This document shows positions 24,110 to 40,841 of a DNA stretch of 64,000 bases, piece after piece (positions within the stretch are counted from its first letter, which is position 1; every line of letters begins with the position of its first letter). Source of the DNA: the human T2T-CHM13v2.0 reference genome, Homo sapiens; assembly GCF_009914755.1 (NCBI RefSeq), contig NC_060925.1. The stretch is one strand, 5' to 3'. The notes below the pieces were generated by a model. The model was given only the letters and a program-made list of their open reading frames with translations. It was not told the origin of the DNA and did not search any database. A program made the position numbers and the translations under genes.

Positions 24110-24367
24110 CAGCTCCCCCAAAGGCTGTGCTGAAACTCGAGCCCTAGTGGATCAACGTGCTCCAAGAGGACTCTGTGACTCTGACATGCCGGGGGACTCA
24201 CAGCCCTGAGAGCGACTCCATTCCGTGGTTCCACAATGGGAATCTCATTCCCACCCACACGCAGCCCAGCTACAGGTTCAAGGCCAACAACAATGACAGC
24301 GGGGAGTACACGTGCCAGACTGGCCAGACCAGCCTCAGCGACCCTGTGCATCTGACTGTGCTTTCTG
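24110..24367 (+). CDS. FCGR2C: FCGR2C exon 3 (Ig domain EC1) containing the Q57X stop
   Basis: [25 protein letters not shown]...[20 protein letters not shown]; TAG 24145-24147; Pro at codon 83 (CCG 24223-24225). Confidence 0.95.
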
Positions 24368-25946: not shown

Positions 25947-26676
25947 GTATGAGGAGTCTGCCAAGATGTAGGGAGGGGAGAAGAGGGGATGGATAAGGGC
26001 TGAGGTCACATGGGCCTACATGGAGGTCTGAGAAAGGCCACAGCGCAAAATTGGGCACTGGAGCAAAGAGGAGTGGTGTGGAGGCCTGGCTAAGTATTGA
26101 CCAATGAGCAGGAGTAGGGGCCAGAGCTTGGAGCCCTCAGGTGATAGGTGACCAGGCTGTTGTTCCACTTTGAAATGCAGGCCCCAGACTAAGGACGGCA
26201 GCGAAGCAGAGCTCCCTCGTTGGTGCAGAGGTTCCCTAAGCTCCTGGGCATTCGTAAGAACTGAGGTTTGCCTTTATTCTTCTCATGGCTCATGTTATAG
26301 CCATTCACTCCAGAAAGCCTGGCACGTCATGGACTGTTCAAGGCTGTGCTCCATAGAGTAATGATGCCTCCAGCTATGCGAGGCTTTGGGCCCACCCTTC
26401 CCACTGCCCCTGAGGGCTAAGGGGAGCCCTTCCTTCTGCTCCTGCCTGCTCACCAGTGTGCCTTTATTAGTTCGGTGGAGAAACCTCGGTAGGCAGGAGG
26501 CATAAGTCCAGCCACAGAAACCCTGTGCAGATGAGGCTGGGGATGTAGTGAGTGCTGCAGAAGTGAGTGACTCAGACACAGAAGAGCTTCGGGTGACAAG
26601 CACTAGGACATAGCATTGGATGGGGGGGAGGTGGGACAAGGAGAGTACTGCCTGTCCTGATGTCTGTCTTCCCTAG

Positions 26677-26790
26677 CTCCCAGCTCTTCACCGATGGGGA
26701 TCATTGTGGCTGTGGTCACTGGGATTGCTGTAGCGGCCATTGTTGCTGCTGTAGTGGCCTTGATCTACTGCAGGAAAAAGCGGATTTCAG
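26677..26790 (+). CDS. FCGR2C: FCGR2C exon 5 (transmembrane)
   Basis: APSSSPMGIIVAVVTGIAVAAIVAAVVALIYCRKKRIS; canonical ends. Confidence 0.95.
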
Positions 26791-27973
26791 GTTTGTAGCT
26801 CCTCCCGGTCCCTTTTGTTATCAGTTTCCACTTGGCCCAGGCCCTAACCCCAGACATTGCCAGAATCCCTCTCTTTGGGCTAGATACACATTCAGATCTA
26901 GGCCCGTATTGTATTATAGTCATTCATTCGTTTATTAGATCATTCATTTGACAAGACTTGAACAAACTAGCTTATGTGTCAGCCAATGCGTGAGACATGG
27001 TGGGTGATGCCAAGAGAAGTCCAGTCCCTGCCCTTGGGGAGTTCTCAGCATTGTGAGGAAGACAGGGTCATTATAATAAGATGGGATAAGAGCAATGATA
27101 GGGACATGAAAAGCCTAGGATAGAAGTACAGAGGAGGCTCCATAGCCCAACAAGGGCTGAGGCAGTTGGAGAAGTTCTCAGGGAGAGCAGTGTAGTGTAG
27201 TGATGGAGTGCACATAGTGGGGCCAGACTGCCTGGGTTCAAATCTAGTTCTACAGCATACCAACTATATGACCCAAGTGAGTCACTCCACCTCTCTGTGC
27301 CTCAGCTGTCTCATGTGGAAAATGGGGACACTAACAGGACTTACCTCACAGGGTTGCCATGGGGATGAAAGAGGCTGATGCTCTTACACAGTGCCTGGTA
27401 GGCAGTAACAGCACACAAACAGGGCTGTTGCCATTCTGGAGGAGGTGGTGTGTGAGGGCAGCGCTTAGCTAGGGAAGGAGGACCCTCCAGGCACTGGGCC
27501 AAGGCAGGGATTGAAGCCGGGTGGGGCTCATATGGGTGTCGAAGGGGGAGAAGAGAGGGTACTGCAAGCCACCAAGAAAGAAAGAATCCCGCTAACACCT
27601 CACAAAGCACTTTTCAATTGGTTCATAGCCAACACCTCAGTTACTGATGATAAGTAAATACAGAGAAACAGAGAGAGAGAGACTGAGACACAGGGGTGTT
27701 TTTAAAAGGCAGAGCAAGCCTCAGACAGATGCCATGGCGTGGCCTTTCTGACACTCCTGGGCATCCCCATGGGTGAGCTGAATTCTGCCTCTGGACCAGC
27801 CCTTTTCCAGGCGGGAGCGGCCCCTGAGCAGGGGAGCTGGGGGTGGGAGGACAGGAAACATCTGCCAGAGGGAAGGCCTGAGCTGGTCCCATCCAACCCT
27901 GGCCCTGGTCCTTGGTCCTGAGGACTCAGGCCCCACCGCCTAATCCTACTAACCTCCTGTGTGCCCCTCCCAG

Positions 27974-28030
27974 CTCTCTCAGGATACCCTGAGTGCAGGG
28001 AAATGGGAGAGACCCTCCCTGAGAAACCAG
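27974..28030 (+). CDS. FCGR2C: Alternative 57-nt C1 cytoplasmic exon (FCGR2B1-type insert)
   Basis: cccag|...[19 protein letters not shown]...|gtgagt; frame-preserving. Confidence 0.75.
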
Positions 28031-29481
28031 GTGAGTACAGGTTGTCTCAGGGATTCAGTGATGGCTCACCAGGGCTGCCGGCTGGACTGCAGCCAGCGAG
28101 AAGGGGCTTGTGCGAGTTCAGCTGGGAGCCAGGGAGGGAGCAGCGGTGGGAGGATGGCCGGGGCTCAAATCGCTTGGTTAGCTCTGAGTCTAACTCCTGG
28201 GCCTAAAGATGACCTCTCTGGAGATGAGAAGAGAAACACCAGTCCCAGATACAGAGGAGAGGGCTGTGTCCGAATTTCTGGTACCAGGAATCTGATGATA
28301 TTTCCAGAGCAAGAAATCAGAGATACTTTGGTCTTTCTGTGGAGCTTTGGCAGAGCTGGCAGAGGATGGGGTTAGGGGCTGTAAGACTGAGGCCAATCGG
28401 ACGTGGGAGGCAGGAGTCTAAGGGGAAAGGAGGAGGAGGCCTGGAAACCCCTCAATTTGCTGAGGAATCTGCCTCTGTGGAGGGATGGGGTGGAGTGGCC
28501 AGGCTCAGCTGTCTGTGGAACACTAAGAGGAGGTTTGGGCTTGAGAAAATTCTGGGGGGCTAGGGGCACTAGTGGGCTCTACTCTGTGGGCAAAGCTCGG
28601 TTCCAATGCCCATGCACTCAAGGTTGACTGAATTTTGGCCTGGTTCTGCCCCCATCACACAGTGGAGCCCTGAGCAAGTCAGTCTCCCTGATGGGGTTCA
28701 GTCTCCTCACTGAGGAAATGAGTGGGTGGCCAGGGTGACCTCTCAGGCCTTCTAGGTCTGACATTCAGGTGGGAGTATGTAAAGGAACTTCCAGGAGGAT
28801 GCCAGGCAACTTCCAGACTGTAGTTAAAGTCAGAGCATAAAGGAAACCAGTGCTTTCTCTGGGGGCTTCCATGACAGTAGGAACAGGCAGGAAAAAGGCT
28901 GTCAAAGACCGCACCTCAGATGGCTGGAGTATGATTCAGAGCAGAGCCAACAGATTTAAGAGCTTGAGCAAAATATCACTTGTTCAGCTGTGCTTGCAGC
29001 AAGGTTGCACGTCCACTGGCCAGGCCCAGTGGTGATAGGGGCCTGTGTTCACACCAGGGCCAAAACAGATCTGGAAAATACAAAGTCCAAGCAACTGGAT
29101 TATCCATCTTGTTGTGTGGTTCTGTCTGCACTGGCATAAGCACATTTCATGAGGCATTTTTGCAGCCAGGCATTGGGGCTGCATAAATGGTTTCTTAAAA
29201 ATCCTTTCCCAAAAGGCAAAGCTGGTTTGCTGGAATTGTTGGGGAATGTATTAGAATGGGAATTCAGAATGTGGTTTGCTGCAGAATTTACAGCATGGCA
29301 ATAAAGGCTCTCTGTGTTCAGGGGGTGAGAGAAGAGACTAGATGCATTGTGTCAGATGTCTCCCGACTTCCTGAGAAATGCCACTTTGCAAATACTGGGG
29401 CTGCTTTTCACACTGGCCAAGTCAGTTTATGACAAAAACATGAGGCAATTAGGTGTGTTTTGGACACTAACCAGAGAAAGT

Positions 29482-29600
29482 CCTTCCTTCCCTCCCTTCC
29501 TCCCTCCCTCCTTCCCTCCCTCTCTCCCTTCCTGCCTTCCTTCCTTCCCCCTTCCCTCCCTCCCTTTCTCCCTCCCTAAGCTCCCTCCCTGCCTCTCTTT
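29482..29600. repeat. (CCTT/CCCT)n pyrimidine tract
   Basis: Low-complexity C/T tetramer run. Confidence 0.85.
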
Positions 29601-30100
29601 TTCTCTCTCATGTTACTTTCTCTTTCTGTCTTCCTTTTTAATGCCATGGAGTACTATATTCTTCAAAGTTCCAACAAAGATGCACTACATTTGGACAATG
29701 TGGAAATGGCCCTCAGCCTTCTCTTCCTGATGTGGTCAGCAAAAATCTGGACTTTACTTCACTCTGATGCTGAACACCCTGCTCCACATCTTCCCCAGTA
29801 TCTCAGATCCCCAAGCTGTCTGGTTTGCTTCTAGGAAAGCTCAGCAATTCCCTGAAAAGAGTGTGGCCCAAGTGACTGCTTCCCTCCACCAGTGTGGCCC
29901 GTGGGGAAGGCTGTGGCTGGGTGACCCCAAGGGTGGGTACATGAGGCCATATTTACTTAGCCCTTGGCCTTACAGGACTGTGTCAAGGGGTCAGTAGTCC
30001 TTGCTTTGAGTCTGGTTATGGTTTTGCAGCCTCAGCATCAGCGTGGGCAGGCCCTTTTCAACAGCAGTGCCCTGGCTAATCTTTTTCTTTTTCCCCACAG

Positions 30101-30138
30101 CCAATTCCACTGATCCTGTGAAGGCTGCCCAATTTGAG
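30101..30138 (+). CDS. FCGR2C: FCGR2C C2 exon (38 nt), donor mutated to AT
   Basis: ccacag|ANSTDPVKAAQFE|atgagt; position c.798+1 is A (30139). Confidence 0.92.
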
Positions 30139-33100
30139 ATGAGTAATCCCAGCCATCTCCTTTTCTTCCTGCCTTGTCCCTTCTCTCCTGTTTCCTCTCT
30201 TTTTGCCTTTGTTAATGCAAAATTAAAATGGAGACTGGGCCTGAAAACTCCTGAGCAAACAAAGCCACCCGGGCCTTAGAAATAGCCTTATCATTGCTTA
30301 AACTGCAAACATAAGTGAAACTCAAGTTGGATTGTAACTAAAAATAGGTAATACTTAACTTGGATCATTTCTGGTAAATATTTATGTTAGACAGAAATAA
30401 GATTTAACCCTAGCCAATCGTAAGCAGCCAACTAACATAATTATGTGACTAAGAACACTTCAGTAAGGTACCTCACCCAAAAGACAATTATGTAACTGCA
30501 AACCTATCAAATTTCTTTATTTTACTTCCACATCTTCCCAATTAATACCTGTCTCTGACTTTCTGTCATTAAAACATTAGACCTCTTTTGGTTTGGTGTC
30601 ACCCAATTCATGAATTGCTTCTTACTCAAATGAACTCTTTAAAATTGTATTGTGCCTTAGATTTTTCTTTAACAGTTTGGTGTCAGAAGTAGGATATAAA
30701 GTAGAATCTCCCCCAAAGATCCCTAAGAGCAATGGGTGACCAGGCATAGGTACCCATTAAGCCCATTGTGTTCACTGGTTTCTTCCTGCATTTGTGAGTC
30801 ACTAGGTAAGTCCCTCTCAGATATCAGGCTTGCAACTTGTGTCCTGAGCTCTCTGAGTTTATTTGAGTAATTTTATTTCTCATTTGATTCAGCGGTTAAT
30901 CTGGGTATTTGACAAGTTCATCTGTTTCCAACAGGAACTATACTAGGTCCAGTATAGTGTACTAGTTTCCAGACAAGGTCTGATTTCTGGATTGGGATCC
31001 AGAGGTCAAATTGGGTATTTGACAGATTGAACTAGGTGTTCAACAGAAACTGAACTGGGGGTCCAGTTGGAGTCCTCAGGTAGGTAAATTTCAGAAGGGC
31101 AAGATATTATGGCTTTGTCAGAATGTACAGAGTCTGGGACTCCTCCATCTGAAACACAGTGATTTCTATGTTCAGATAATATGGGCCCAGAACCTGTGAC
31201 TTTCTAGAGAAATAGGTGTGCCTTACCTATTGAGCCTTACCAGAGATGACTTAAAGTTGCAATGGTCACAGTGAGGATGTTTAAATCTAGAAAAAATTGT
31301 TCATTTAAGGGATGCATTGGGAAAAAATGAGATCCCAAATGTCTCAGAAACAATGATAAATAATTTTGATTGGTATGTAAAGGTTTCTAAAAGAATGATT
31401 TAAAAAAATAGTCTCTCTAAGTAAATCTTTACAATGTGCTAATAAGAAAGTATTCTAAACCTATTAACCTCTTTGATTGCTTGCTTTTTCCATCTGAACC
31501 TACTCAATGCTAACCTCCTTAAAAAATTAGATCCTCAAATGAGCCAGGAGTATCTACAACAACTAAATTTAACTCTTGTTATTGCACACATGAACTATTA
31601 TAAAAGCAACCACTAAGGCTAAAAATAATAAAAACTAACTGGAAATAGGCCAGATAAACTAGATGTCTCCTTAGTCACTCATTTAAAATTTAATCCAGTC
31701 TCAATAAGATTGACTCCTAATAATAGGTGAAAATGCCCCAAAACTCCTTCTTGGAGAAGCTTCGTACCCTTTCTCCGGGCCTTTGAATTGTGTAAATGTT
31801 TTTAAAACACAAGCTTCAGCGAAAAGACTCATCAAAAAGAAAGAAGGAGGAATTTTTTAGAAACAAACTGGCAAATGAAAAATCTTAATAGTCCTCTCCA
31901 CAAATATCAATAAAAAGTGTCAGCCATCTGAACAGCTAACTTTAACCAGAGACTAGATCCAACTAATTAGTTTTATATTATTATACCTGGCACATGGCTA
32001 AAATTTCAGAACAAAAGCCATGAATTTCTGTTTGCATCTTTCTGTATGTTTACATATATCTACACATGTGTATGCTATTTGTACATAATATTATTCTATC
32101 TCCAGATGGTATTTATTAGAAACAGTATTAAAGGAGCTCAACTGGCCTAGAGAAAAATAAGCACTTATATAAATTACATATTTTCTCAGAAGAAAAGAAC
32201 TTGGCCAAAATGCTTTTCAACTTCATATGACCTGAGTAATCTTTTATAAATAAGAATATTGGCATTAATGAAAGTGAATATTCTACCTAGTTTTACCCAA
32301 ATAAGCTCATGTTGTCTGCTATACAATTTGTCAAAAAAATACCTTGAGATGACAGGTAGTTGGTTTTGTTAATATTATGTTTGCCACTTTAACTATGTTA
32401 AATGAAATGACAGGTATTCATTAAATATCTACACCATTTCCAGATAAGACAAACTACTAAAACAAAAATAAAAAAGTGTTCCACTTATCTTTTTCTCTCT
32501 ACCTGATTGTTTCAGAATTTGGAAACTCTTATTAAGTATTTTTATTTTCAATCTGGGTGTTTGCATAGGTTCAATAAGAATCTATTCTCCTTATGACAGG
32601 ACATAATTGGGCAAGTCCTTGGCTTGGCTTCTTAGCCTAGAGAGGCTTTTAAAGGTCTAATCTGAGATTTCTCAATTACTAGATAGTGTTTAAAAACTAA
32701 AGTTGACTGATAACAAAGTCAGTAAAGTCTCTTGGATATCACCAAAACTGTGGCTAAAATATATTTTAAAATTACTGTTTTTATTATACCTATATAAATA
32801 ATCAGGTCAAAATTAATGAAACTAGATTTATTTTTGCAAAAAAGTCAACTTTGATTTTTGGTAAAAATGGAAAATAAAAATATTTTTCTCCAGAATAAAA
32901 AAGATTATATTTTAGTAGAAAACTATTGTGCATCCATTGTCAAATTCTAGGCCTGTTCATTTTCTTTGAAGTTTTATTATCTCCCTATAAACCAGATTGA
33001 CTCCTGAATTTTTGTTTTTTAGTTCCACTAGAAACTAAAACTGCCCTTTTCCAAAGCTCTGCAAACTGAAACTGGTGACTTTAAGCTTCAGAAAAATCAC

Positions 33101-33494
33101 TGCAACAGAGCACTTATGCCTTAATGCCAATCTTAATGCCTGCTGCTATCTGGGTCACTCAGAGAGTTTACCAGAATGTTTAATGAAATAACCAGAGACA
33201 TTCAAATTGCAAACCAGTAAAGCACATCACATTGCAACTGCTATCTTCAGTCTACCATTTAAACTTGCCTCAAACTCACCTCTAGAAATTGTTTCACCTA
33301 GCTGCCCTCTAAACTCAAAAACTAAGATCATAATTTGCTCCAAATATTAACTTTGTTTTTTTAATAGAAGAATACTCTGAATTCCTTTCAAGCAATACAA
33401 TCTAAAATGAGCAAGTTAGCCTCAATAGCACCCCAAAATAGAAGTTCTTGGTATCTTAACAGCTTAACAAGGAGGAGCTTGTGTTCCTACTGAT

Positions 33495-33975
33495 GTCAAA
33501 AGAAATGCTTAAAGATCTCAGTTGGCTTTATGGTGATTCTAGAACTGGGCAATACTTGCCACCTTAAATTAGAATAAGGTTTCCAATGAGTTACAGCAGA
33601 GGAGATTGGCTTCATAGACAGAAAAAGGTCTGAAGAAAGCAGAAACAAAGAATTTAAAGTGGATTGGCTATTTTAAAGCTGGTTAAAGTTGCAAAAGACA
33701 GGAATAGGGAAACAGAATAATAAATAACTGGTTGGTTAACATCAGGTTACTCTTTTGTAAGGATGCCAATTGAAACTGGCCTGTTTGGGAGATTAGATTT
33801 TTAGGTTATTAGGTTATTATCTCTCTCTCCTGATTTTTCCAAAGGCCAGATAAGAATGTAGTTTCTGTTTGGTGACTTGAAACTTTATCGTGGGTGATTC
33901 CATTTTGATTTTTAGTCTGTTCTGTTTGGGCCTAGTGCAGGAGCTTAGTGCAAAACAACAGCCTCCTAAAATTTA
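33495..33975 (-). mobile_element. Second ERV1-class solo LTR (MER67-like) nested in the env relic
   Basis: Reverse complement begins ...ggaggctgttgttttgcactaagctcctgcactaggccc...aaaatggaatcac and interrupts the env ISD-to-TM region. Confidence 0.55.
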
Positions 33976-34180
33976 AAAGACTTTAAAGAACATACATGAG
34001 TTTTTCATCAGATAATATTTATTTGTATTCATTAATTTATTTGATTGGTTAAGTCTTGGCTCCCGAGAATCTTTGCTCAGAGGAATTTTTCAATCCTTGG
34101 CTATTATTCTCCTTATAGTTATTGTATTTACCTCCCCGGTGTATTGAATTATCCTATGGGTTTTAAATGCTTTCCTGCAG

Positions 34181-34354
34181 CCACCTGGACGTCAAATGAT
34201 TGCCATCAGAAAGAGACAACCTGAAGAAACCAACAATGACTATGAAACAGCTGACGGCGGCTACATGACTCTGAACCCCAGGGCACCTACTGACGATGAT
34301 AAAAACATCTACCTGACTCTTCCTCCCAACGACCATGTCAACAGTAATAACTAA
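34181..34354 (+). CDS. FCGR2C: FCGR2C last coding exon C3 (ITAM)
   Basis: ctgcag|PPGRQMIAIRKRQPEETNNDYETADGGYMTLNPRAPTDDDKNIYLTLPPNDHVNSNN*; YxxL-x12-YxxL. Confidence 0.95.
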   Translation, partial: PPGRQMIAIRKRQPEETNNDYETADGGYMTLNPRAPTDDDKNIYLTLPPNDHVNSNN

Positions 34355-34746
34355 AGAGTAACGTTATGCCATGTGGTCACACTCTCAGCTTGCTGAGTGG
34401 ATGACAAAAAGAGGGGAATTGTTAAAGGAAAATTTAAATGGAGACTGGAAAAATTCCTGAGCAAACAAAACCACCTGGCCCTTAGAAATAGCTTTAACTT
34501 TGCTTAAACTACAAACACAAGCAAAACTTCACGGGGTCATACTACATACAAGCATAAGCAAAACTTAACTTGGATCATTTCTGGTAAATGCTTATGTTAG
34601 AAATAAGACAACCCCAGCCAATCACAAGCAGCCTACTAACATATAATTAGGTGACTAGGGACTTTCTAAGAAGATACCTACCCCCAAAAAACAATTATGT
34701 AATTGAAAACCAACCGATTGCCTTTATTTTGCTTCCACATTTTCCC

Positions 34747-34752
34747 AATAAA
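34747..34752 (+). terminator. Proximal poly(A) signal inside the 3' LTR
   Basis: AATAAA in the LTR downstream of the stop codon. Confidence 0.65.
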
Positions 34753-34827
34753 TACTTGCCTGTGACATTTTGCCACTGGAACACTAAACTTCATGAATTG
34801 CGCCTCAGATTTTTCCTTTAACATCTT

Positions 34828-35124
34828 TTTTTTTTGACAGTCTCAATCTGTTACCCAGGCTGGAGTGCAGTGGTGCTATCTTGGCTCACTGCAAACCCGC
34901 CTCCCAGGTTTAAGCGATTCTCATGCCTCAGCCTCCCAGTAGCTGGGATTACAGGCATGTGCCATCATAACCAGCTAATTTTTGTATTTTTTATTTTTTT
35001 TTTTAGTAGAGACGGGGTTTCGCAATGTTGGCCAGGCCGATCTCGAACTTCTGGCCTCTAGCGATCTGCCCGCCTCGGCCTCCCAAAGTGCTGGGATGAC
35101 CAGCATCAGCCCCAATGTCCAGCC
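34828..35124 (-). mobile_element. Alu inserted at the 3' LTR terminus
   Basis: Antisense Alu; TSD ctttaacatctt at 34816-34827 and 35126-35137. Confidence 0.9.
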
Positions 35125-35189
35125 TCTTTAACATCTTCTTTCCTATGCCCTCTCTGTGGATCCCTACTGCTGGTTTCTGCCTTCTCCAT

Positions 35190-35273
35190 GCTGAGAACAA
35201 AATCACCTATTCACTGCTTATGCAGTCGGAAGCTCCAGAAGAACAAAGAGCCCAATTACCAGAACCACATTAA
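35190..35273 (+). pseudogene. Fossil FCGR2B-type ITIM exon in the 3' UTR
   Basis: AENKITYSLLMQSEAPEE... versus FCGR2B AENTITYSLLMHPDALEE; preceded by a pyrimidine tract ending in cat instead of cag. Confidence 0.88.
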
Positions 35274-35749
35274 GTCTCCATTGTTTTGCCTTGGGATTTG
35301 AGAAGAGAATTAGAGAGGTGAGGATCTGGTATTTCCTGGTCTAAATTCCCCTTGAGGAAGACGAAGGGATGCTGCAGTTCCAAAAGAGAAGGACTCTTCC
35401 AGAGTCATCTACCTGAGTCCCGAAGCTCCCTGTCCTGAAAACCACAGACAATATGGTCCCAAATGACTGACTGCACCTTCTGTGCCTCAGCCATTCTTGA
35501 CATCAAGAATCTTCTGTTCCACATCCACACAGCCAATACAATTAATCAAACCACTGTTATGAACAGATGTAGCAACATGAGAAATGCTTATGTTACAGGT
35601 TACATGAGAACAATCATGTAAGTCTATATGACTTCAGAAATGTTAAAATAGACTAACCTCTAACAACAAATTAAAAGTGATTGTTTCAAGGTGATGCAAT
35701 TATTGATGACCTATTTTATTTTTCTATAATGATCATATATTACCTTTGT

Positions 35750-35755
35750 AATAAA
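35750..35755 (+). terminator. Distal poly(A) signal of FCGR2C
   Basis: AATAAA at the end of the ancestral FCGR2-type 3' UTR. Confidence 0.6.
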
Positions 35756-36343
35756 ACATTATAACCAAAACATTCTGTTTACCTTTTCAGGGCTGTATTG
35801 ATTGGGGTGTAGACTGAACTATCCGGGGTCTGTTTCTTTTCGGTGATGAAAGTCTTGAGAAGGTAGTAATGGATAAGATGTGAAGGAGAGGAGAGATGGA
35901 GATTTGGAGTGTAGGGTGAGTGCCCCTCTTCTTAAAACTGAATACTCTTCTTCTAATGAACTTGTATTCTTGTTTCCATGTCTTCTTGCCTTTCCTTCTA
36001 TGGCAAATAAAACACTCACTTTGTTTTGGAACACAAGTTCTCAGAAAGGCAAACTTTAGGTGAGTCGTCAGTGGAGACTGCTGACTTCCTGCACTGCTAT
36101 TTTCCCAGTGCAGTTACCAGAAGGATGTGACCTTCTCAGAGAAGTCATTCCAGGCAGATTAGAAACATGACCCACAGTCTCCTTGATGGTTTGGTGAGTG
36201 CCCTTAAAGAGCCTTCCATTTTCCTGGGACACAGCATCACTGTGCACAATTCTTGCATTTGAAAAGTAGCAGCTTTCTCTGTTGGATAGTTTACATCGAT
36301 TTTTAAGGAGGCTATGGAGCTTCCACCCACCCTTCCAAACTCT

Positions 36344-36738
36344 ATGTATTAGTCTGTCTCTATGTATTAGTGTGTTCTCATGCTGCTATGAAGAAATACC
36401 TGAGACTGGGTTATTCATGAAGAAAAGAGGGTTAATTGGCTCACAGTTCCTCATCGCTGGGGAGGCCTCAGGAAACTTACAATCACAGCAGAAGGCAAAG
36501 GAGAAGCAGGCACCTTCTGCACATGATGGCAGGACAGAGTGAGTGCAAGCAGGGAAGGTGCCAGACACTTATAAAACCCTAAGCTCTCGTGAGACTCACT
36601 CACTATTATGAGAACAGCATGGGGAAACCGTCGCCATGACCCAGTTACCTCCACCTGGTCCCACTTTTGACAGATGGGGATTATGAGGATGACAACTCAA
36701 GATGAGACTTTGGGTGGAGACAGAGCCAAACCATATCA
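36344..36738. mobile_element. MaLR LTR (MST-type)
   Basis: tgtattagt...gctgctatgaagaaatacctgagactggg...ccaaaccatatca. Confidence 0.8.
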
Positions 36739-36799
36739 CCCTAGACAGAGGCTCCTCAAATATGTAAAGCCTTGTTAAATCCTGCTTTTACATTAAAAT

Positions 36800-37548
36800 G
36801 CACCCAACAATCTGACTGCTTCTCAGTATTCTACTCCTACCACCCTGGTCCAAGCCACCATCATTTCTCACTTGGATTACTGCAATAGCCTCCTGACTGG
36901 CCTCCCTGCACTCACCCTTGCCATCCTATAGTCTATTCTCACCACAACAGCTATTGTGATCTTTTAAAAATGTGTCATATTTGTCACTTCTTTTCCCCAA
37001 ATCATATACTATCTTCTCCTTGTGCTTGGAGTAAAGGCTAGAGCTTTTGCAATATTCTACAAGATGCTACAGGATCTTGCTCTTCACTCTGTCTGACCTC
37101 ATCTCCTACTGCTTTTTCTTGCTTGCTGTTGGTCACTCTTGCTCTTCCTTGAACGTGCCAATTATACTTCTGCCCAGAGCCTATGTTATTTCCTGTTTCT
37201 GGAATGTTCTTTCTCATAGACCCACATTATGCCTCATTATGTCCTTTAGGTCTTTACTCACATGTCACCTTATCAGTGAGGTCTCCTTGATCATTCGGTA
37301 TAACCCGTCGCCCTCCCATACTCTTAATGTCCCTTTCCTTCTTCATTTTTCTCCATTGTGCTTATTACTACTGATGTACTATTAATATATGTTTACTGTT
37401 TGTTTTGTGTCTGACTTCCCCACTCCTCTCATTAGAATGCGAGCTCCAGGAGAGGTCTTTGTCTGTTTTGTTCACTACCACATACTCAGAGCCCAGGTCA
37501 GTGTCTGGTGCATGGTAAAGCGCTTAATAAATATGTGTGGAATGAGTA
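36800..37548 (+). mobile_element. L2 3' region
   Basis: ccaagccaccatcatttctcacttggattactgcaatagcctcct...taataaatatgtgtggaatga. Confidence 0.7.
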
Positions 37549-37744
37549 AATTCTTTGACGTTTGAAATCAGAGACTTTAAACTGGAAAGTCCTTAGAAAC
37601 AATGTAGTCCAATCTCTTCATTTTAAAACGGAGGAAGCTGTGGCCCAGACAGGTGAAATGACTTGTTCAAGGACAAACAGGTAGTGGATGTCACTGACCT
37701 TTATATATATATAGTTTGGATTATACTATAACTTTTGTTCTATA

Positions 37745-38094
37745 GTGAAATGGTTTGGCTATGTCCCCACCCAAATATCATCTTGAATTCCCACAACACA
37801 TGGGAGGGACCCAGTGGAAGGTAACTGAATCATGGGGCAGGTCTTTCCCATGCTGTTCTTGTGATAGTGAATAAGTCTCATGAGATCTGATGGTTTTAAA
37901 AAGGGGAGTTTCCCTGCACAAGCTCTCTCTTCTCTTGTTTGCCACCATGTGAGACATGACTTTCACCTTTTGCCATGATTGTGAGGCCTCCCCAGCCACG
38001 TGGAACTGTAAGTCCATTAAACCTCTTTCTTTTGTAAATTGCCCCGTCTCAGGTATGTCTTTATTAGCAGTGTGAGAATGGGCTAACGCATACA
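37745..38094. mobile_element. MaLR LTR (THE1-type), opposite orientation to the MST
   Basis: atggtttggctatgtccccacccaaat...ggtatgtctttattagcagtgtgaga. Confidence 0.85.
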
Positions 38095-39348
38095 ACTTGC
38101 TTTTTTTTTGTACTCAATATTGAGTCGTGAGCTTTGCACCACTTTACAATGTCTATTTAAGTCATTACTTTAAGGTCGATTCTATTTTTAAAGCTACTCT
38201 AACTAAGCTACTAAACATAAGTGGATATATTTAAGTGTATGTATAAAATTTATACTAGGCCAGCTGCAGTGGCTCATGCCTGTAATCCCAAAGCTGTGGA
38301 AGGTAGAGGTGGGATTGATTGAGGCCACGAGTTCAAGGCTGCAGTGAGCTGTGATTGCATCACTGTACTCCAGCCTGAGGGACAGAGCAGGAACCAGAAA
38401 AAAATAAAATAAAAAGAAACAAACAAAAAAACCCCCAATAACCCTGCAGTGGCTCTTTTACAAAAAACAAACAAACAAAACCAAAACTGTACTGCATGCA
38501 TAAGCTCCCCTATGCTATGTTTGAACCACTCTGAAGAGATCAATTAAAAGGAAGTGAGTGACATTGGGAGCATGCCTCTGTGATGCTGTGGTAACATTCA
38601 TAGGCTGCGTTAGGGCTATGCCTGTAACTCTTGGAGATGAGTGGGTAAGTGGGGTTTTGAGGTGGCTGGGGGCTGGAAGAGAAGGTTGGAGGAGCCCACA
38701 CAAGACAGTCCCTTAACACGCCGGGGCACAGAACCCCAGGCTGGGCCAACTTTTCCCTGCTGAGGTGAAGACCCATCTCTTGCAGGCCGTCGGCAAACGT
38801 CTTGACTCTGGCATCCAGGTGTGACCAGCTTAGACCCTGAGAGTGAGTGAATTTAAAGCTGACAGCTTCTTTCCCTTTTGGAATTATGAAATAGGTTACT
38901 TCTTTTCAAGGACAGTTTGATTTTCCACTGTGGAAGTCATATATTGCACATTTCTTTAAACATTCCCTTTTTTCCTGAACTGATCACCTTACCAGTACAG
39001 CTGATCTCTCAAGCAGCAATCTCTACCAGCTGTCACTGGTGCTCTCGGAGAGAGGATTAACCAAGAAACCCAGCCCAGGAACAGTACTGACCTCTACTTC
39101 TGGACTCCTGCCTCCCTCTTAAAAAGTCCCTTGAACTTCCTAGTGGGTTCTAACCTGTCAAAGGAGAAAATAGCCACCTATGGAGTAAGGGTTTTTAGTT
39201 TCTCTTTTTACAAATGGAAGTTTCCTTTGAATCAGGCAAGTAACGTTAAATAGAAGCCAACTTTTAAGTTTCTCCTTATAACACACTGCTAAATTATAAC
39301 ACCAGACTATACCACATACTCTCCAGCTGCCAGCTATTGCAGTTGCCA

Positions 39349-39420
39349 TCCTTGTTACTATAGTGGTAAGTATCTCTGCCTGTCATGCATGAGAGAGGGG
39401 GTCGATTCCCTGACAGGGAG
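39349..39420 (+). pseudogene. tRNA-Asp(GTC) pseudogene
   Basis: TCCTTGTTACTATAGTGGTAAGTATCTCTGCCTGTCATGCATGAGAGAGGGGGTCGATTCCCTGACAGGGAG aligns end-to-end with tRNA-Asp-GTC but has many CpG-type and stem mutations. Confidence 0.85.
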
Positions 39421-40046
39421 GTTACGGAAAATTGTGTGGGGATTTTGTCAACCTTCAAAAGTCTCAGAAATGTCTCCTTGTTTTGGCTTTCAGCGGAAAT
39501 CCGAACACCAGAAGATCTGAATGGAATGTTCTGGATTGAAGAAAGTGGGAAATGGCCTCAATTCACAAAGTCACAGCCTGATAGAAACCAGTGTGACTTT
39601 ACTGCCCAGTGAACCCATCTCGTCCTCCAGCCTTTAGGAGGTAGGTTGGACTGGAGCCTGCAGTAGTTTACTCTCCACCTGAGTCCTGGTCTCCGGCTGG
39701 GAACCCACTTAGGCCATAGAGAAAAACGCACACTGTGCCTCTCCACCGGGCCTCTGGAGACGAGGCTCCTCGGGGATACAAACAGTGGGGAGAACATGAG
39801 GGACATCCTGACCGTACACTGCGTCCTCCTTTCCCAGGTGTTGCGTTCTCTCTGGGGTTGAGTGGCGAGGTCTCTCCCGAGTCCCAGGGCCACAGTGCAA
39901 TGTCACATCCCCTTTGTGGAAAGTGACTGGTAAAAGAGAACAAAACTGGAGGAACCTAAAGTCTTCGGCCACCTGGTTTAATTTATTCAAGAGTGATTAA
40001 TCCTAGATGAGAAAAAGAATTGAAATGGATCGGAAAAAACCAAGCG

Positions 40047-40117
40047 TGCATTGGCCGGTAATCGGACGCGGGCCTCCCGCGTTGCGGGCGAGAAGTCTAC
40101 CACTACACCACCAATGC
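40047..40117 (-). tRNA. Degenerate tRNA with a Gly-GCC body and GCA anticodon (likely pseudogene)
   Basis: GCATTGGTGGTGTAGTGGTAGACTTCTCGCCCGCAACGCGGGAGGCCCGCGTCCGATTACCGGCCAATGCA; B-box damaged; T-run terminator downstream. Confidence 0.8.
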
Positions 40118-40299
40118 TAATGTCGATGAAAGAGCTGCAGTGTCATCTCTTAAAGCTGATTATCTCTGGCCATTCCTTAAGGAAACAGGCACTGTCTTAA
40201 ATCGTGGTTTGGAAAATATTTTGTTCAAGATAAAACTGTTTTAAGATATATGTATATATATCTTATATATCTGTATTCGCATGGTAACATATCTTCGGC

Positions 40300-40841
40300 C
40301 TTCCTGAGCCGCTGGGCTCTCAGCGGCCCTCCAAGGCAGCCCGCAGGCCCGTGCTCGCCTCAGGGATCTGACCTCCCACAGCCCCGGGGAGACCTTGCCT
40401 CTAAAGTTGCTGCTTTTGCAGCCTCTGCCACAACCGCGCGTCCTCAGAGCCAGCCGGGAGGAGCTAGAACCTTCCCCGCGTTTCTTTCAGCAGCCCTGAG
40501 TCAGAGGCGGGCTGGCCTGGCGTAGCCGCCCAGCCTCTCGGCTCACGGCCCGATCCGCCCGAACCTTCTCCCGGGGTCAGCGCCGCGCTGCGCCGCCCGG
40601 CTGAGTCAGCCCGGGCGGGCGGGCGGGAGGCTCTCGACTGGGCGGGAAGGTGCGGGAAGGTTCGCGGCGGCGGGGTCGGGGAGGTGCAAAAGGATGAAAA
40701 GCCCGTGGAAGCGGAGCTGAGCAGATCCGAGCCGGGCTGGCGGCAGAGAAACCGCAGGGAGAGCCTCACTGCTGAGCGCCCCTCGACGGCGGAGCGGCAG
40801 CAGCCTCCGTGGCCTCCAGCATCCGACAAGAAGCTTCAGCC
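40300..40841 (+). promoter_or_regulatory. HSPA7: HSPA7 CpG-island promoter and 5' UTR with heat-shock elements
   Basis: nGAAnnTTCn elements at 40467-40474 and 40561-40568, gaaggtgcgggaaggttc at 40646-40663, and GC boxes. Confidence 0.8.

What the first reader, a model, noticed from the sequence alone, without database searches (positions are those of the whole stretch)
35161..35330. Fossil inhibitory (ITIM) exon preserved in the 3' UTR of an activating receptor
Seen: a pyrimidine tract ending cttctcCAT, then GCTGAGAACAAAATCACCTATTCACTGCTTATG = AENKITYSLLM, open for 27 codons to TAA 35273. The ITYSLL motif is intact and in phase 0, matching the C2 exon. Known: FCGR2B ends AENTITYSLLMHPDALEEPDDQNRI. 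Inference: this is the displaced ancestral last exon, silenced by AG>AT. A T>G change at 35189 could resurrect an inhibitory isoform.
Basis: partly seen in the sequence, partly recalled or inferred. Interest (0 to 1): 0.75.

Follow-up and report, generated by a model that had tools for sequence, protein, structure and literature searches.

The report
Vestigial ITIM exon in FCGR2A/2C tail
This is a dead copy of the inhibitory last exon of FCGR2B, pushed downstream by an old retroviral insertion and carried in the long 3' UTR of FCGR2A-type genes; it is real but was already described in 2019.

Summary
Window 35190-35273 reads AENKITYSLLMQSEAPEEQRAQLPEPH*, preceded by ...cttctccat.

It is the homologue of the FCGR2B last exon. 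A 661-base query matched four places in the genome: this window, FCGR2C, FCGR2A, and the FCGR2B last exon plus 3' UTR (88% identity, E 5.8e-238). FCGR2B has TAG|GCTGAG where the relic has CAT|GCTGAG.

- **Displacement:** a 4.6-kb LTR element (30210-34823) carrying the ITAM exon, plus an Alu (34828-35125), sits in what is a 110-base intron in FCGR2B, 52 bases upstream of the dead acceptor.
- **Decay:** a 7-base insertion shifts the frame after codon 16, so only the ITIM part is intact. Its divergence equals the UTR background, and a neutral simulation keeps ITYSLL in 26% of runs.
- **Host gene:** this copy is an FCGR2C-Stop pseudogene with a premature stop and an AT donor at C2. FCGR2A carries the identical relic.
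- **Novelty:** Lejeune et al. 2019 (PMC6563257) already describe this "vestigial IC3 exon".

The idea that one base change could restore an inhibitory isoform is untested, and cannot hold for this copy.

The parts
30101..30138 (+). C2 cytoplasmic exon (38 nt, ends in phase 0). In this copy its donor is AT (atgagt); FCGR2A and FCGR2B have gtgagt.
   Evidence: annotation table supplied with the finding
30206..30209 (+). Left target-site copy CCTT of the LTR-element insertion. The right copy is TCTT at 34824-34827, repeated at 35134-35137 by the Alu duplication.
   Evidence: FCGR2B has a single CCTT at the empty site
30210..34823 (+). LTR retroelement (4,614 nt), absent from FCGR2B. 5' LTR about 30210-30640, 3' LTR 34420-34823, starts TG and ends CA. 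Lejeune 2019 names it MER57F LTRs with a MER34B interior.
   Evidence: LTR pair K2P 0.27; name (paper), not tested here
34181..34353 (+). ITAM-encoding last coding exon (PPGRQ...HVNSNN, stop at 34351-34353), lying in the interior of the LTR element just upstream of the 3' LTR.
   Evidence: 30 dispersed copies of this stretch elsewhere in the genome at 65-84% identity
34747..34752 (+). AATAAA inside the 3' LTR, a candidate proximal poly(A) signal that would end the mRNA before the relic.
   Evidence: the 5' LTR has AATTAA at the aligned place
34828..35125 (-). Antisense Alu flanked by the 12-nt direct repeat CTTTAACATCTT (34816-34827 and 35126-35137), inserted at the LTR/flank junction.
   Evidence: sequence; many matches in both orientations. 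The name Alu is recalled from the sequence pattern.
35138..35189 (+). Last 52 nt of the ancestral C2-C3 intron, with its pyrimidine tract. The FCGR2B-aligned stretch 35135-35189 also covers 35135-37 of the duplicated target-site copy (35134-37) and is 51 of 55 identical to FCGR2B. The acceptor reads CAT where FCGR2B has TAG; 35189 is the T.
35190..35273 (+). Relic of the FCGR2B C3 (ITIM) exon coding part: 27 codons plus TAA. ITYSLL lies at 35202-35219.
35239..35245 (+). 7-nt insertion relative to FCGR2B (placement ambiguous by a few bases) that shifts the frame. In the old frame the sequence after it reads KEPNYQNHIK.
35274..35771 (+). Homologue of the FCGR2B 3' UTR, with the shared AATAAA at 35750-35755. 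The FCGR2C gene annotation ends at the position equivalent to 35771.
   Evidence: annotation table supplied with the finding (FCGR2C end 117560, mapped through)

Best explanation
Window 35190-35273 is the vestigial third cytoplasmic (ITIM) exon of an FCGR2B-type ancestor. It is kept as non-coding sequence in the distal part of the long 3' UTR of FCGR2A-type genes (FCGR2A, FCGR2C and this extra FCGR2C-like copy).

In FCGR2B the C2 and C3 exons are separated by a 110-base intron. In the FCGR2A lineage a 4.6-kb LTR retroelement inserted into that intron, 58 bases after the donor and 52 bases before the acceptor. An Alu later inserted at the element's 3' edge.

The element's interior supplies a strong acceptor, the ITAM reading frame and a stop codon, and its 3' LTR supplies an AATAAA. 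C2 therefore splices into the retroelement exon, and the old exon is never reached as coding sequence (inferred).

The old exon has since decayed. Its acceptor AG is now AT, and a 7-base insertion shifts the frame after codon 16. The ITIM core ITYSLL survives, at a divergence no lower than the surrounding UTR, so its survival needs no selection.

It persists because the gene still uses the ancestral distal poly(A) site, which makes it a passenger in the UTR. In this window the host gene is itself dead (FCGR2C-Stop type).
For: - Homology (shown): a 661-base query (35130-35790) gave 4 of 4 scored matches in the genome: the window, FCGR2C (100%), FCGR2A (98%), and the FCGR2B last exon with its 3' UTR (88%, E 5.8e-238). 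The three-way alignment has 94% mean column identity and the AATAAA is invariant.
- FCGR2B exon (shown): it translates to AENTITYSLLMHPDALEEPDDQNRI*.
- Acceptor (shown): FCGR2B has TAG|GCTGAG; the window and FCGR2A have CAT|GCTGAG.
- Insertion anatomy (shown): FCGR2B coordinates are continuous across window 30209/35135. The LTR pair is 4.2 kb apart. Target-site copies are CCTT/TCTT and the Alu has a 12-nt duplication.
- ITAM exon is retroelement interior (shown): 30 further dispersed matches at 65-84% identity, including one on contig 11 at 21.95 Mb. This agrees with Lejeune 2019, whose passages I read.
- No special conservation (shown): K2P is 0.097 for the 11 ITIM codons against 0.10 for the UTR homologue. 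In a neutral simulation ITYSLL stays exact in 26% of runs, and the ITIM consensus in 54%, at 10% change per site.
- UTR location (indirect): the FCGR2C annotation ends at the equivalent of 35771, 16 nt after the AATAAA (annotation table). A 2024 review states that FCGR2A/2B/2C homology includes 'part of the 3'-UTR' (passages).
- Age bound (inferred): AT is present in both FCGR2A and the FCGR2C copies, so the loss predates their duplication.
Against: - No transcript data could be examined here, so the claim that the relic sits in mature mRNA rests on annotation ends and a review legend. [quoted passage not shown] I read that as 'not as a spliced coding exon', but this is my reading.
- The predicted model in this window splices 34343 to 35791 and skips the relic altogether (annotation table).
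- The order of events (insertion first, AG loss later) is not shown, because no other primate genome was available.
- Divergence is uneven. The right flank (0.08-0.15) is much less diverged than the left flank (0.18-0.29) and the LTR pair (0.27). A simple 'displaced once and left alone' history does not predict this.
Confidence: 0.92

Rival explanations
1. The FCGR2B-like 3' stretch (relic exon plus UTR) is not the original exon left in place. It was refreshed or copied in later by gene conversion or unequal exchange with FCGR2B, after the retroelement had inserted. Its defects (AT, 7-base insertion) would then be younger than the element.
For: K2P to FCGR2B is 0.077-0.10 for the intron remnant, ITIM codons and UTR, and 0.12-0.15 beyond the poly(A) site. 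It is 0.18-0.29 on the left flank and 0.27 between the two LTRs. FCGR2A against FCGR2B identity varies by block: 88.7, 92.3, 80.2, 86.8 and 84.8%. That is the pattern of repeated exchange in this cluster.
Against: - Site numbers are small for the short segments.
- LTR ends align poorly, with 54 gap columns, which can inflate the LTR distance.
- Constraint on a shared functional 3' UTR would also lower right-flank divergence.
- The insertion site and target-site copies fit FCGR2B exactly on both sides, so any conversion tract would have to start right of the element.
Confidence: 0.2
2. The relic is still a latent or low-level alternative exon. C2 could splice to the first AG after the dead acceptor (35194-35195, GAG|AAC, in frame, losing two codons), or to 35190 in carriers of a base change that restores the AG. 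Either would give an ITIM-bearing FCGR2A isoform.
For: - The pyrimidine tract and the stretch aligned to FCGR2B just upstream of the exon are 51 of 55 identical to the working FCGR2B intron.
- An in-frame AG lies 6 nt downstream.
- The phase matches C2.
- FCGR2A has a good C2 donor.
- The same gene has a precedent: a single base change brings the vestigial C1* exon into FcgRIIa3 mRNA (review passage).
Against: - Lejeune 2019 report no such mRNA or EST.
- The competing retroelement acceptor lies upstream and is the one used.
- GAG is a poor acceptor context (established knowledge, recalled).
- The T>C difference at 35165 takes the candidate branch-site stretch further from the consensus (my reading).
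- The product would carry a frameshifted tail.
- It cannot happen in this window's copy (stop in EC1, AT donor).
Confidence: 0.05
3. The stretch is kept because it acts as a 3' UTR regulatory element (mRNA stability or translation) shared by FCGR2A and FCGR2B, not merely as a neutral passenger.
For: The UTR homologue is somewhat less diverged (K2P 0.10) than sequence beyond the poly(A) site (0.12-0.15). A review reports that chimeric genes with the FCGR2A or the FCGR2C 3' UTR differ in expression, attributed to mRNA stability (passage).
Against: - The difference in divergence is small.
- The relic ORF itself is identical in FCGR2A and the FCGR2C-type copies, so it cannot explain the reported 2A/2C difference.
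- No element was identified here.
Confidence: 0.25
4. A chance open frame with a chance ITIM-like motif, unrelated to FCGR2B.
For: None beyond the shortness of the motif.
Against: A 655-base collinear match to the FCGR2B exon and UTR, E 5.8e-238. The position is continuous with the FCGR2B intron.
Confidence: 0.003

Closest known systems
Vestigial IC3 exon of FCGR2A/FCGR2C (Lejeune, Brachet & Watier 2019, Front Immunol, PMC6563257)
   Same: It is the same object: an FCGR2B-IC3-homologous exon lying downstream of a roughly 5-kb LTR element that brought the ITAM exon into FCGR2A (passages and section 11 read). My coordinates, LTR pair and dispersed copies agree with theirs.
   Different: The text I read gives no base-level detail.
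- the insertion point, 52 nt before the acceptor of a 110-nt intron;
- the target-site copies and the Alu at the junction;
- the CAT versus TAG acceptor;
- the 7-base frameshift;
- the old-frame reading with a second tyrosine;
- the in-frame AG 6 nt downstream.

They state that the exon was never found in mRNA. Annotation ends and the shared poly(A) signal indicate that it lies inside the long 3' UTR. Their supplement, as held (2,698 characters), had none of my search terms. Figures are not held.
FCGR2B exon C3 (ITIM exon) and its 3' UTR
   Same: The match covers exon plus UTR at 88% nucleotide identity, with the same phase, the same ITYSLL core, and the same poly(A) signal at the same aligned place.
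   Different: The acceptor is AT instead of AG. A 7-base insertion makes the tail unrelated after codon 16. There is a T-to-K change three residues before the tyrosine. The exon lies after a stop codon rather than in the coding path.
FCGR2A C1* exon / FcgRIIa3 (review PMC6433993)
   Same: This is another FCGR2B-type cytoplasmic exon that is normally skipped in FCGR2A and was long regarded as vestigial or cryptic. It shows that a relic exon in this gene can return to the mRNA through one base change at a splice site (passage).
   Different: C1* lies within the coding path between TM and C2, so including it only adds 19 residues. The ITIM relic lies behind the terminal coding exon and its stop, so using it would require bypassing that exon.

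Membership tests
   88% identity over query positions 6-660 of 661, E 5.8e-238; alignment A1.
Homologue of the FCGR2B C3 (ITIM) exon | Same position and phase relative to the C2 exon | tested here: met
   FCGR2B coordinates run on from window 30209 to 35135 once the insertion is removed. C2 ends in phase 0 and the relic starts in phase 0.
Functional terminal coding exon | AG acceptor dinucleotide | tested here: not met
   CAT|GCTGAG in the window and in FCGR2A, against TAG|GCTGAG in FCGR2B.
Functional terminal coding exon | Reading frame of the FCGR2B tail kept to the stop | tested here: not met
   A 7-base insertion after codon 16. Tail QRAQLPEPH* against PDDQNRI*.
ITIM motif (I/V/L/S)xYxx(L/V); consensus recalled | Motif present in the frame that C2 would read | tested here: met
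   ITYSLL at 35202-35219.
ITIM motif (I/V/L/S)xYxx(L/V); consensus recalled | Translated, phosphorylated and able to recruit phosphatases | not testable with these tools
   No transcript or protein data. The motif lies after the stop codon of the used reading frame.
Part of the FCGR2A-type 3' UTR | Lies between the stop codon and a used poly(A) site, within one continuous exon | tested here: inconclusive
   The AATAAA at 35750 is invariant in the three aligned copies (window, FCGR2A, FCGR2B). The FCGR2C copy is 100% identical to the window over 35130-35790. The FCGR2C annotation ends at the equivalent of 35771 (annotation table). A review legend speaks of homology in 'part of the 3'-UTR'. Continuity of the exon was not seen directly, and the predicted model in this window skips the stretch.
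Activating receptor gene (host of the relic in this window) | Open reading frame and working splice sites | tested here: not met
   Stop in EC1 (..LKLEP*W..) and an AT donor after C2. These match the FCGR2C-Stop and c.798+1A states listed in the review.

The most novel reading that the evidence does not exclude
The relic is a latent exon rather than a dead one. In FCGR2A, which has a good C2 donor, rare carriers of a base change restoring the acceptor at the position equivalent to 35189 could make an FcgRIIa isoform that ends in an ITIM instead of the ITAM. So could low-level use of the in-frame AG at 35194-35195. This would parallel the way a single base change brings the C1* exon back in FcgRIIa3. 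A quieter corollary: in the old frame the relic reads ..NYQNHI.., a second tyrosine that human FCGR2B (..DDQNRI) lacks. The relic may therefore record the ancestral primate tail.
Probability: 0.05. Interest if true: 0.6.

Novelty: already known. Interest (0 to 1): 0.2.

Why it matters
FCGR2A is the main activating IgG receptor on platelets, neutrophils and monocytes, and FCGR2B is the only inhibitory one. The relic is physical proof of how one was made from the other: a retroelement dropped into a 110-base intron swapped an inhibitory tail for an activating one.

That story is in print, so the value here is confirmation at base level plus some small additions:
- the exact insertion site;
- the state of the acceptor;
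- the frameshift;
- the uneven divergence that hints at later exchange with FCGR2B.

If the relic could be spliced in, it would matter for antibody therapy and for immune-complex disease. Nothing here shows that it is.

Tried and rejected
- **Chance ORF:** rejected by homology.
- **Selection on the ITIM:** rejected as unnecessary. ITIM-codon divergence (0.097) equals the UTR background (0.10), and the neutral simulation keeps the motif often.
- **Old cloning papers:** Stuart 1987 (PMC2188792) holds the string ITYSLL once according to a search listing, and Brooks 1989 (PMC2189488) was also listed. Only abstracts and references could be read. I cannot say whether the homology of the FCGR2A 3' UTR to the inhibitory tail was already noted then.
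- **Mouse tail:** two papers on the mouse receptor hold both AENTITYSLL and YQNHI by listing, but the passage could not be read. The comparison of the old-frame reading with mouse is therefore a lead only.
- **Transcript sizes:** listings show '2.5 kb' once in Stuart 1987 and '1.5 kb' once in Brooks 1989. My own sums from window exons are about 2,461 and about 1,460 nt for the distal and LTR poly(A) sites. The match with Northern bands is recalled, not seen.
- **Lejeune supplement:** the held text had none of six search terms.
- **ORF scan of 35100-35400, both strands:** 16 stop-to-stop frames of 20 aa or more, and nothing else of note.
- **Not possible with these tools:** other primate genomes, population variants and RNA-seq junctions.

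Full report
**Observation.** A pyrimidine-rich run ends in ...ccttctccat at 35189. It is followed by GCTGAGAACAAAATCACCTATTCACTGCTTATG, which reads AENKITYSLLMQSEAPEEQRAQLPEPH and stops at TAA 35271-35273. ITYSLL lies at 35202-35219. The C2 exon (30101-30138) ends on a whole codon (..AAQFE), so 35190 would be read in phase 0.

**Homology.** A search of the window's own genome with 35130-35790 scored four candidates, and all four matched:
- the window itself;
- a second copy at 100% identity, which the supplied annotation places in FCGR2C;
- a copy at 98% identity, 46 kb upstream of the window, which is FCGR2A by its reading frame;
- a copy at 88% identity (E 5.8e-238) that lies in FCGR2B.

Translating the FCGR2B copy gives AENTITYSLLMHPDALEEPDDQNRI*.

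In the three-way alignment the homology runs from 55 bases upstream of the exon through the whole FCGR2B 3' UTR. It reaches an invariant AATAAA (window 35750-35755) and continues beyond it.

**Acceptor and frame.** FCGR2B has ..cttctctag|GCTGAG. The window and FCGR2A have ..cttctccat|GCTGAG. The G-to-T change at the last intron base is real and is shared by the three FCGR2A-type copies, so it predates the FCGR2A/FCGR2C duplication (inference).

A 7-base insertion (placed at 35239-35245) shifts the frame after codon 16, and 11 of those first 16 residues match FCGR2B. Read in the old frame, the sequence after the insertion gives KEPNYQNHIK. There the old stop is lost (AAG), and there is a tyrosine where human FCGR2B has aspartate. 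Two papers on the mouse receptor hold both AENTITYSLL and YQNHI by search listing, but I could not read the passages. That the relic keeps an ancestral second tyrosine is therefore a lead, not a result.

**What displaced it.** BLAST of window 26000-40500 against 14 kb of FCGR2B shows the FCGR2B coordinates running on without a break from window 30209 to window 35135.
- *FCGR2B intron.* In FCGR2B the C2 exon is followed by gtgagt and a 110-base intron, and then the ITIM exon.
- *Retroelement.* In the window that intron holds 4.9 kb of extra DNA. The main part is a retroelement at 30210-34823. Its LTRs lie 4.2 kb apart, it starts TG and ends CA, and it is flanked by CCTT/TCTT where FCGR2B has one CCTT.
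- *Alu.* An antisense Alu at 34828-35125 is flanked by a 12-base duplication that spans the LTR end.
- *Insertion point.* It lies 58 bases after the donor and 52 bases before the old acceptor.
- *ITAM exon.* The ITAM exon (34181-34353) lies in the element's interior, 67 bases before the 3' LTR. The stretch 33950-34420 has 30 further dispersed matches in the genome at 65-84% identity, including one on contig 11 at 21.95 Mb.
- *Proximal poly(A) signal.* The 3' LTR carries an AATAAA at 34747.

The element thus supplies an acceptor, a coding tail, a stop and a poly(A) signal. That is enough to take the old exon out of the coding path without any change to its own acceptor (inference).

**Is it in the 3' UTR?** The evidence is indirect.
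- The FCGR2C gene annotation ends at window-equivalent 35771, 16 bases after the shared AATAAA (annotation table mapped through).
- A 2024 review says the homology among FCGR2A, 2B and 2C includes 'part of the 3'-UTR'.
- Summing the annotated exons gives about 2.46 kb for the distal site and about 1.46 kb for the LTR site. I recall Northern bands of about 2.5 and 1.5 kb; the listings give only weak support.

Against this, the predicted model in this window splices 34343 to 35791 and skips the stretch. Lejeune et al. also say the vestigial exon was never found in mRNA or ESTs, which I take to mean as a spliced exon.

**Is the ITIM preserved by anything but chance?** No sign of it. K2P distances to FCGR2B are:

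| Segment | K2P to FCGR2B |
|---|---|
| 11 ITIM codons | 0.097 |
| UTR homologue | 0.10 |
| Intron remnant | 0.077 |
| Coding tail after the ITIM | 0.30 (11 of 46 sites; P = 0.003 against the UTR rate) |

Random substitution of the FCGR2B exon at 10% per site leaves ITYSLL exact in 26% of 20,000 runs, and an ITIM consensus in an open frame in 54%.

**The host gene in this window.** Joining the annotated exons gives a frame with a stop in EC1 (..LKLEP*WINV..), and the C2 donor is AT. These are the FCGR2C-Stop and c.798+1A states tabulated in the review. FCGR2A has gtgagt at that donor and an open ITAM exon. 'Activating receptor' therefore applies to FCGR2A, not to this copy, and no single change at 35189 could yield a receptor from this copy.

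**Unexplained.** The left flank of the element is much more diverged from FCGR2B (0.18-0.29) than the right flank (0.08-0.15), and the LTR pair stands at 0.27. With a recalled rate of 2.2e-9 per site per year, these are roughly 60 My for the LTRs and 25 My for the right flank. The LTR figure fits Lejeune's report of traces of the element in a strepsirrhine, a marmoset and a macaque. The younger-looking right flank suggests later exchange with FCGR2B or constraint on the UTR. I give the exchange reading 0.2.

**Resurrection claim.** A restored AG would sit behind a pyrimidine tract and upstream stretch that are 51 of 55 identical to FCGR2B's working one. FCGR2A also offers a precedent in the C1* exon of FcgRIIa3. 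But the site would have to compete with the upstream retroelement acceptor, and the product would have a frameshifted tail. I also note an in-frame AG at 35194-35195 that junction searches should include. None of this could be tested here.

**Comparison with what is known.** Lejeune, Brachet and Watier 2019 (PMC6563257; passages and section 11 read) describe three things:
- FCGR2A aligns with FCGR2B through IC3;
- the alignment is interrupted by a roughly 5-kb MER57F/MER34B element that brought the ITAM exon;

A search for FCGR2A with vestigial, pseudoexon, cryptic exon, fossil or IC3 found no other paper on it among the 15 of 1,680 hits that were listed. The finding is therefore already known.

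**Verdict.** The object is real and its origin is clear, but it is already published and, on present evidence, inert. Interest 0.2.

Noticed in passing
window 24110-24367 and 30139-30140: This extra FCGR2C-like copy carries both known inactivating states: a stop codon in the EC1 exon (..LKLEP*W..) and an AT in place of GT at the C2 donor. The acceptor of the ITAM exon is a normal AG.
   Followed up: partly
window 28250-29250: At sites where FCGR2A and FCGR2B differ, the window is FCGR2B-like up to about 28250 and FCGR2A-like from about 28500, with a mixed patch at 29000-29250 (9 sites like 2A, 6 like 2B). The hybrid junction of this FCGR2C-type copy therefore lies in the intron between the 57-nt C1 exon and C2.
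   Followed up: partly
window 34343/34344 and 35790/35791: The predicted model uses a GT donor inside the ITAM exon, 8 bases before its stop codon, and an acceptor 20 bases past the distal poly(A) site. That would replace the last three residues (SNN) by RLY and skip the whole 3' UTR, relic included (annotation table).
   Followed up: no
window 29500-29620: A CT-rich low-complexity run of 8-nt periodic repeats. The BLAST alignment to FCGR2B breaks here from 96.6% to 78.5% identity.
   Followed up: no
L011 (G000:C11:21953248-21956691): This is the best dispersed match to the ITAM-exon stretch (75% over 451 bases). It probably corresponds to the 11p14.3 retroelement copy that Lejeune 2019 say could encode an ITAM-like motif. 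I did not translate it.
   Followed up: no
window 35130-35790 versus L001: The window copy and the annotated FCGR2C copy 82 kb downstream are 100% identical over 661 bases. This fits a very recent extra copy of the FCGR2C/FCGR3B unit in this assembly.
   Followed up: no
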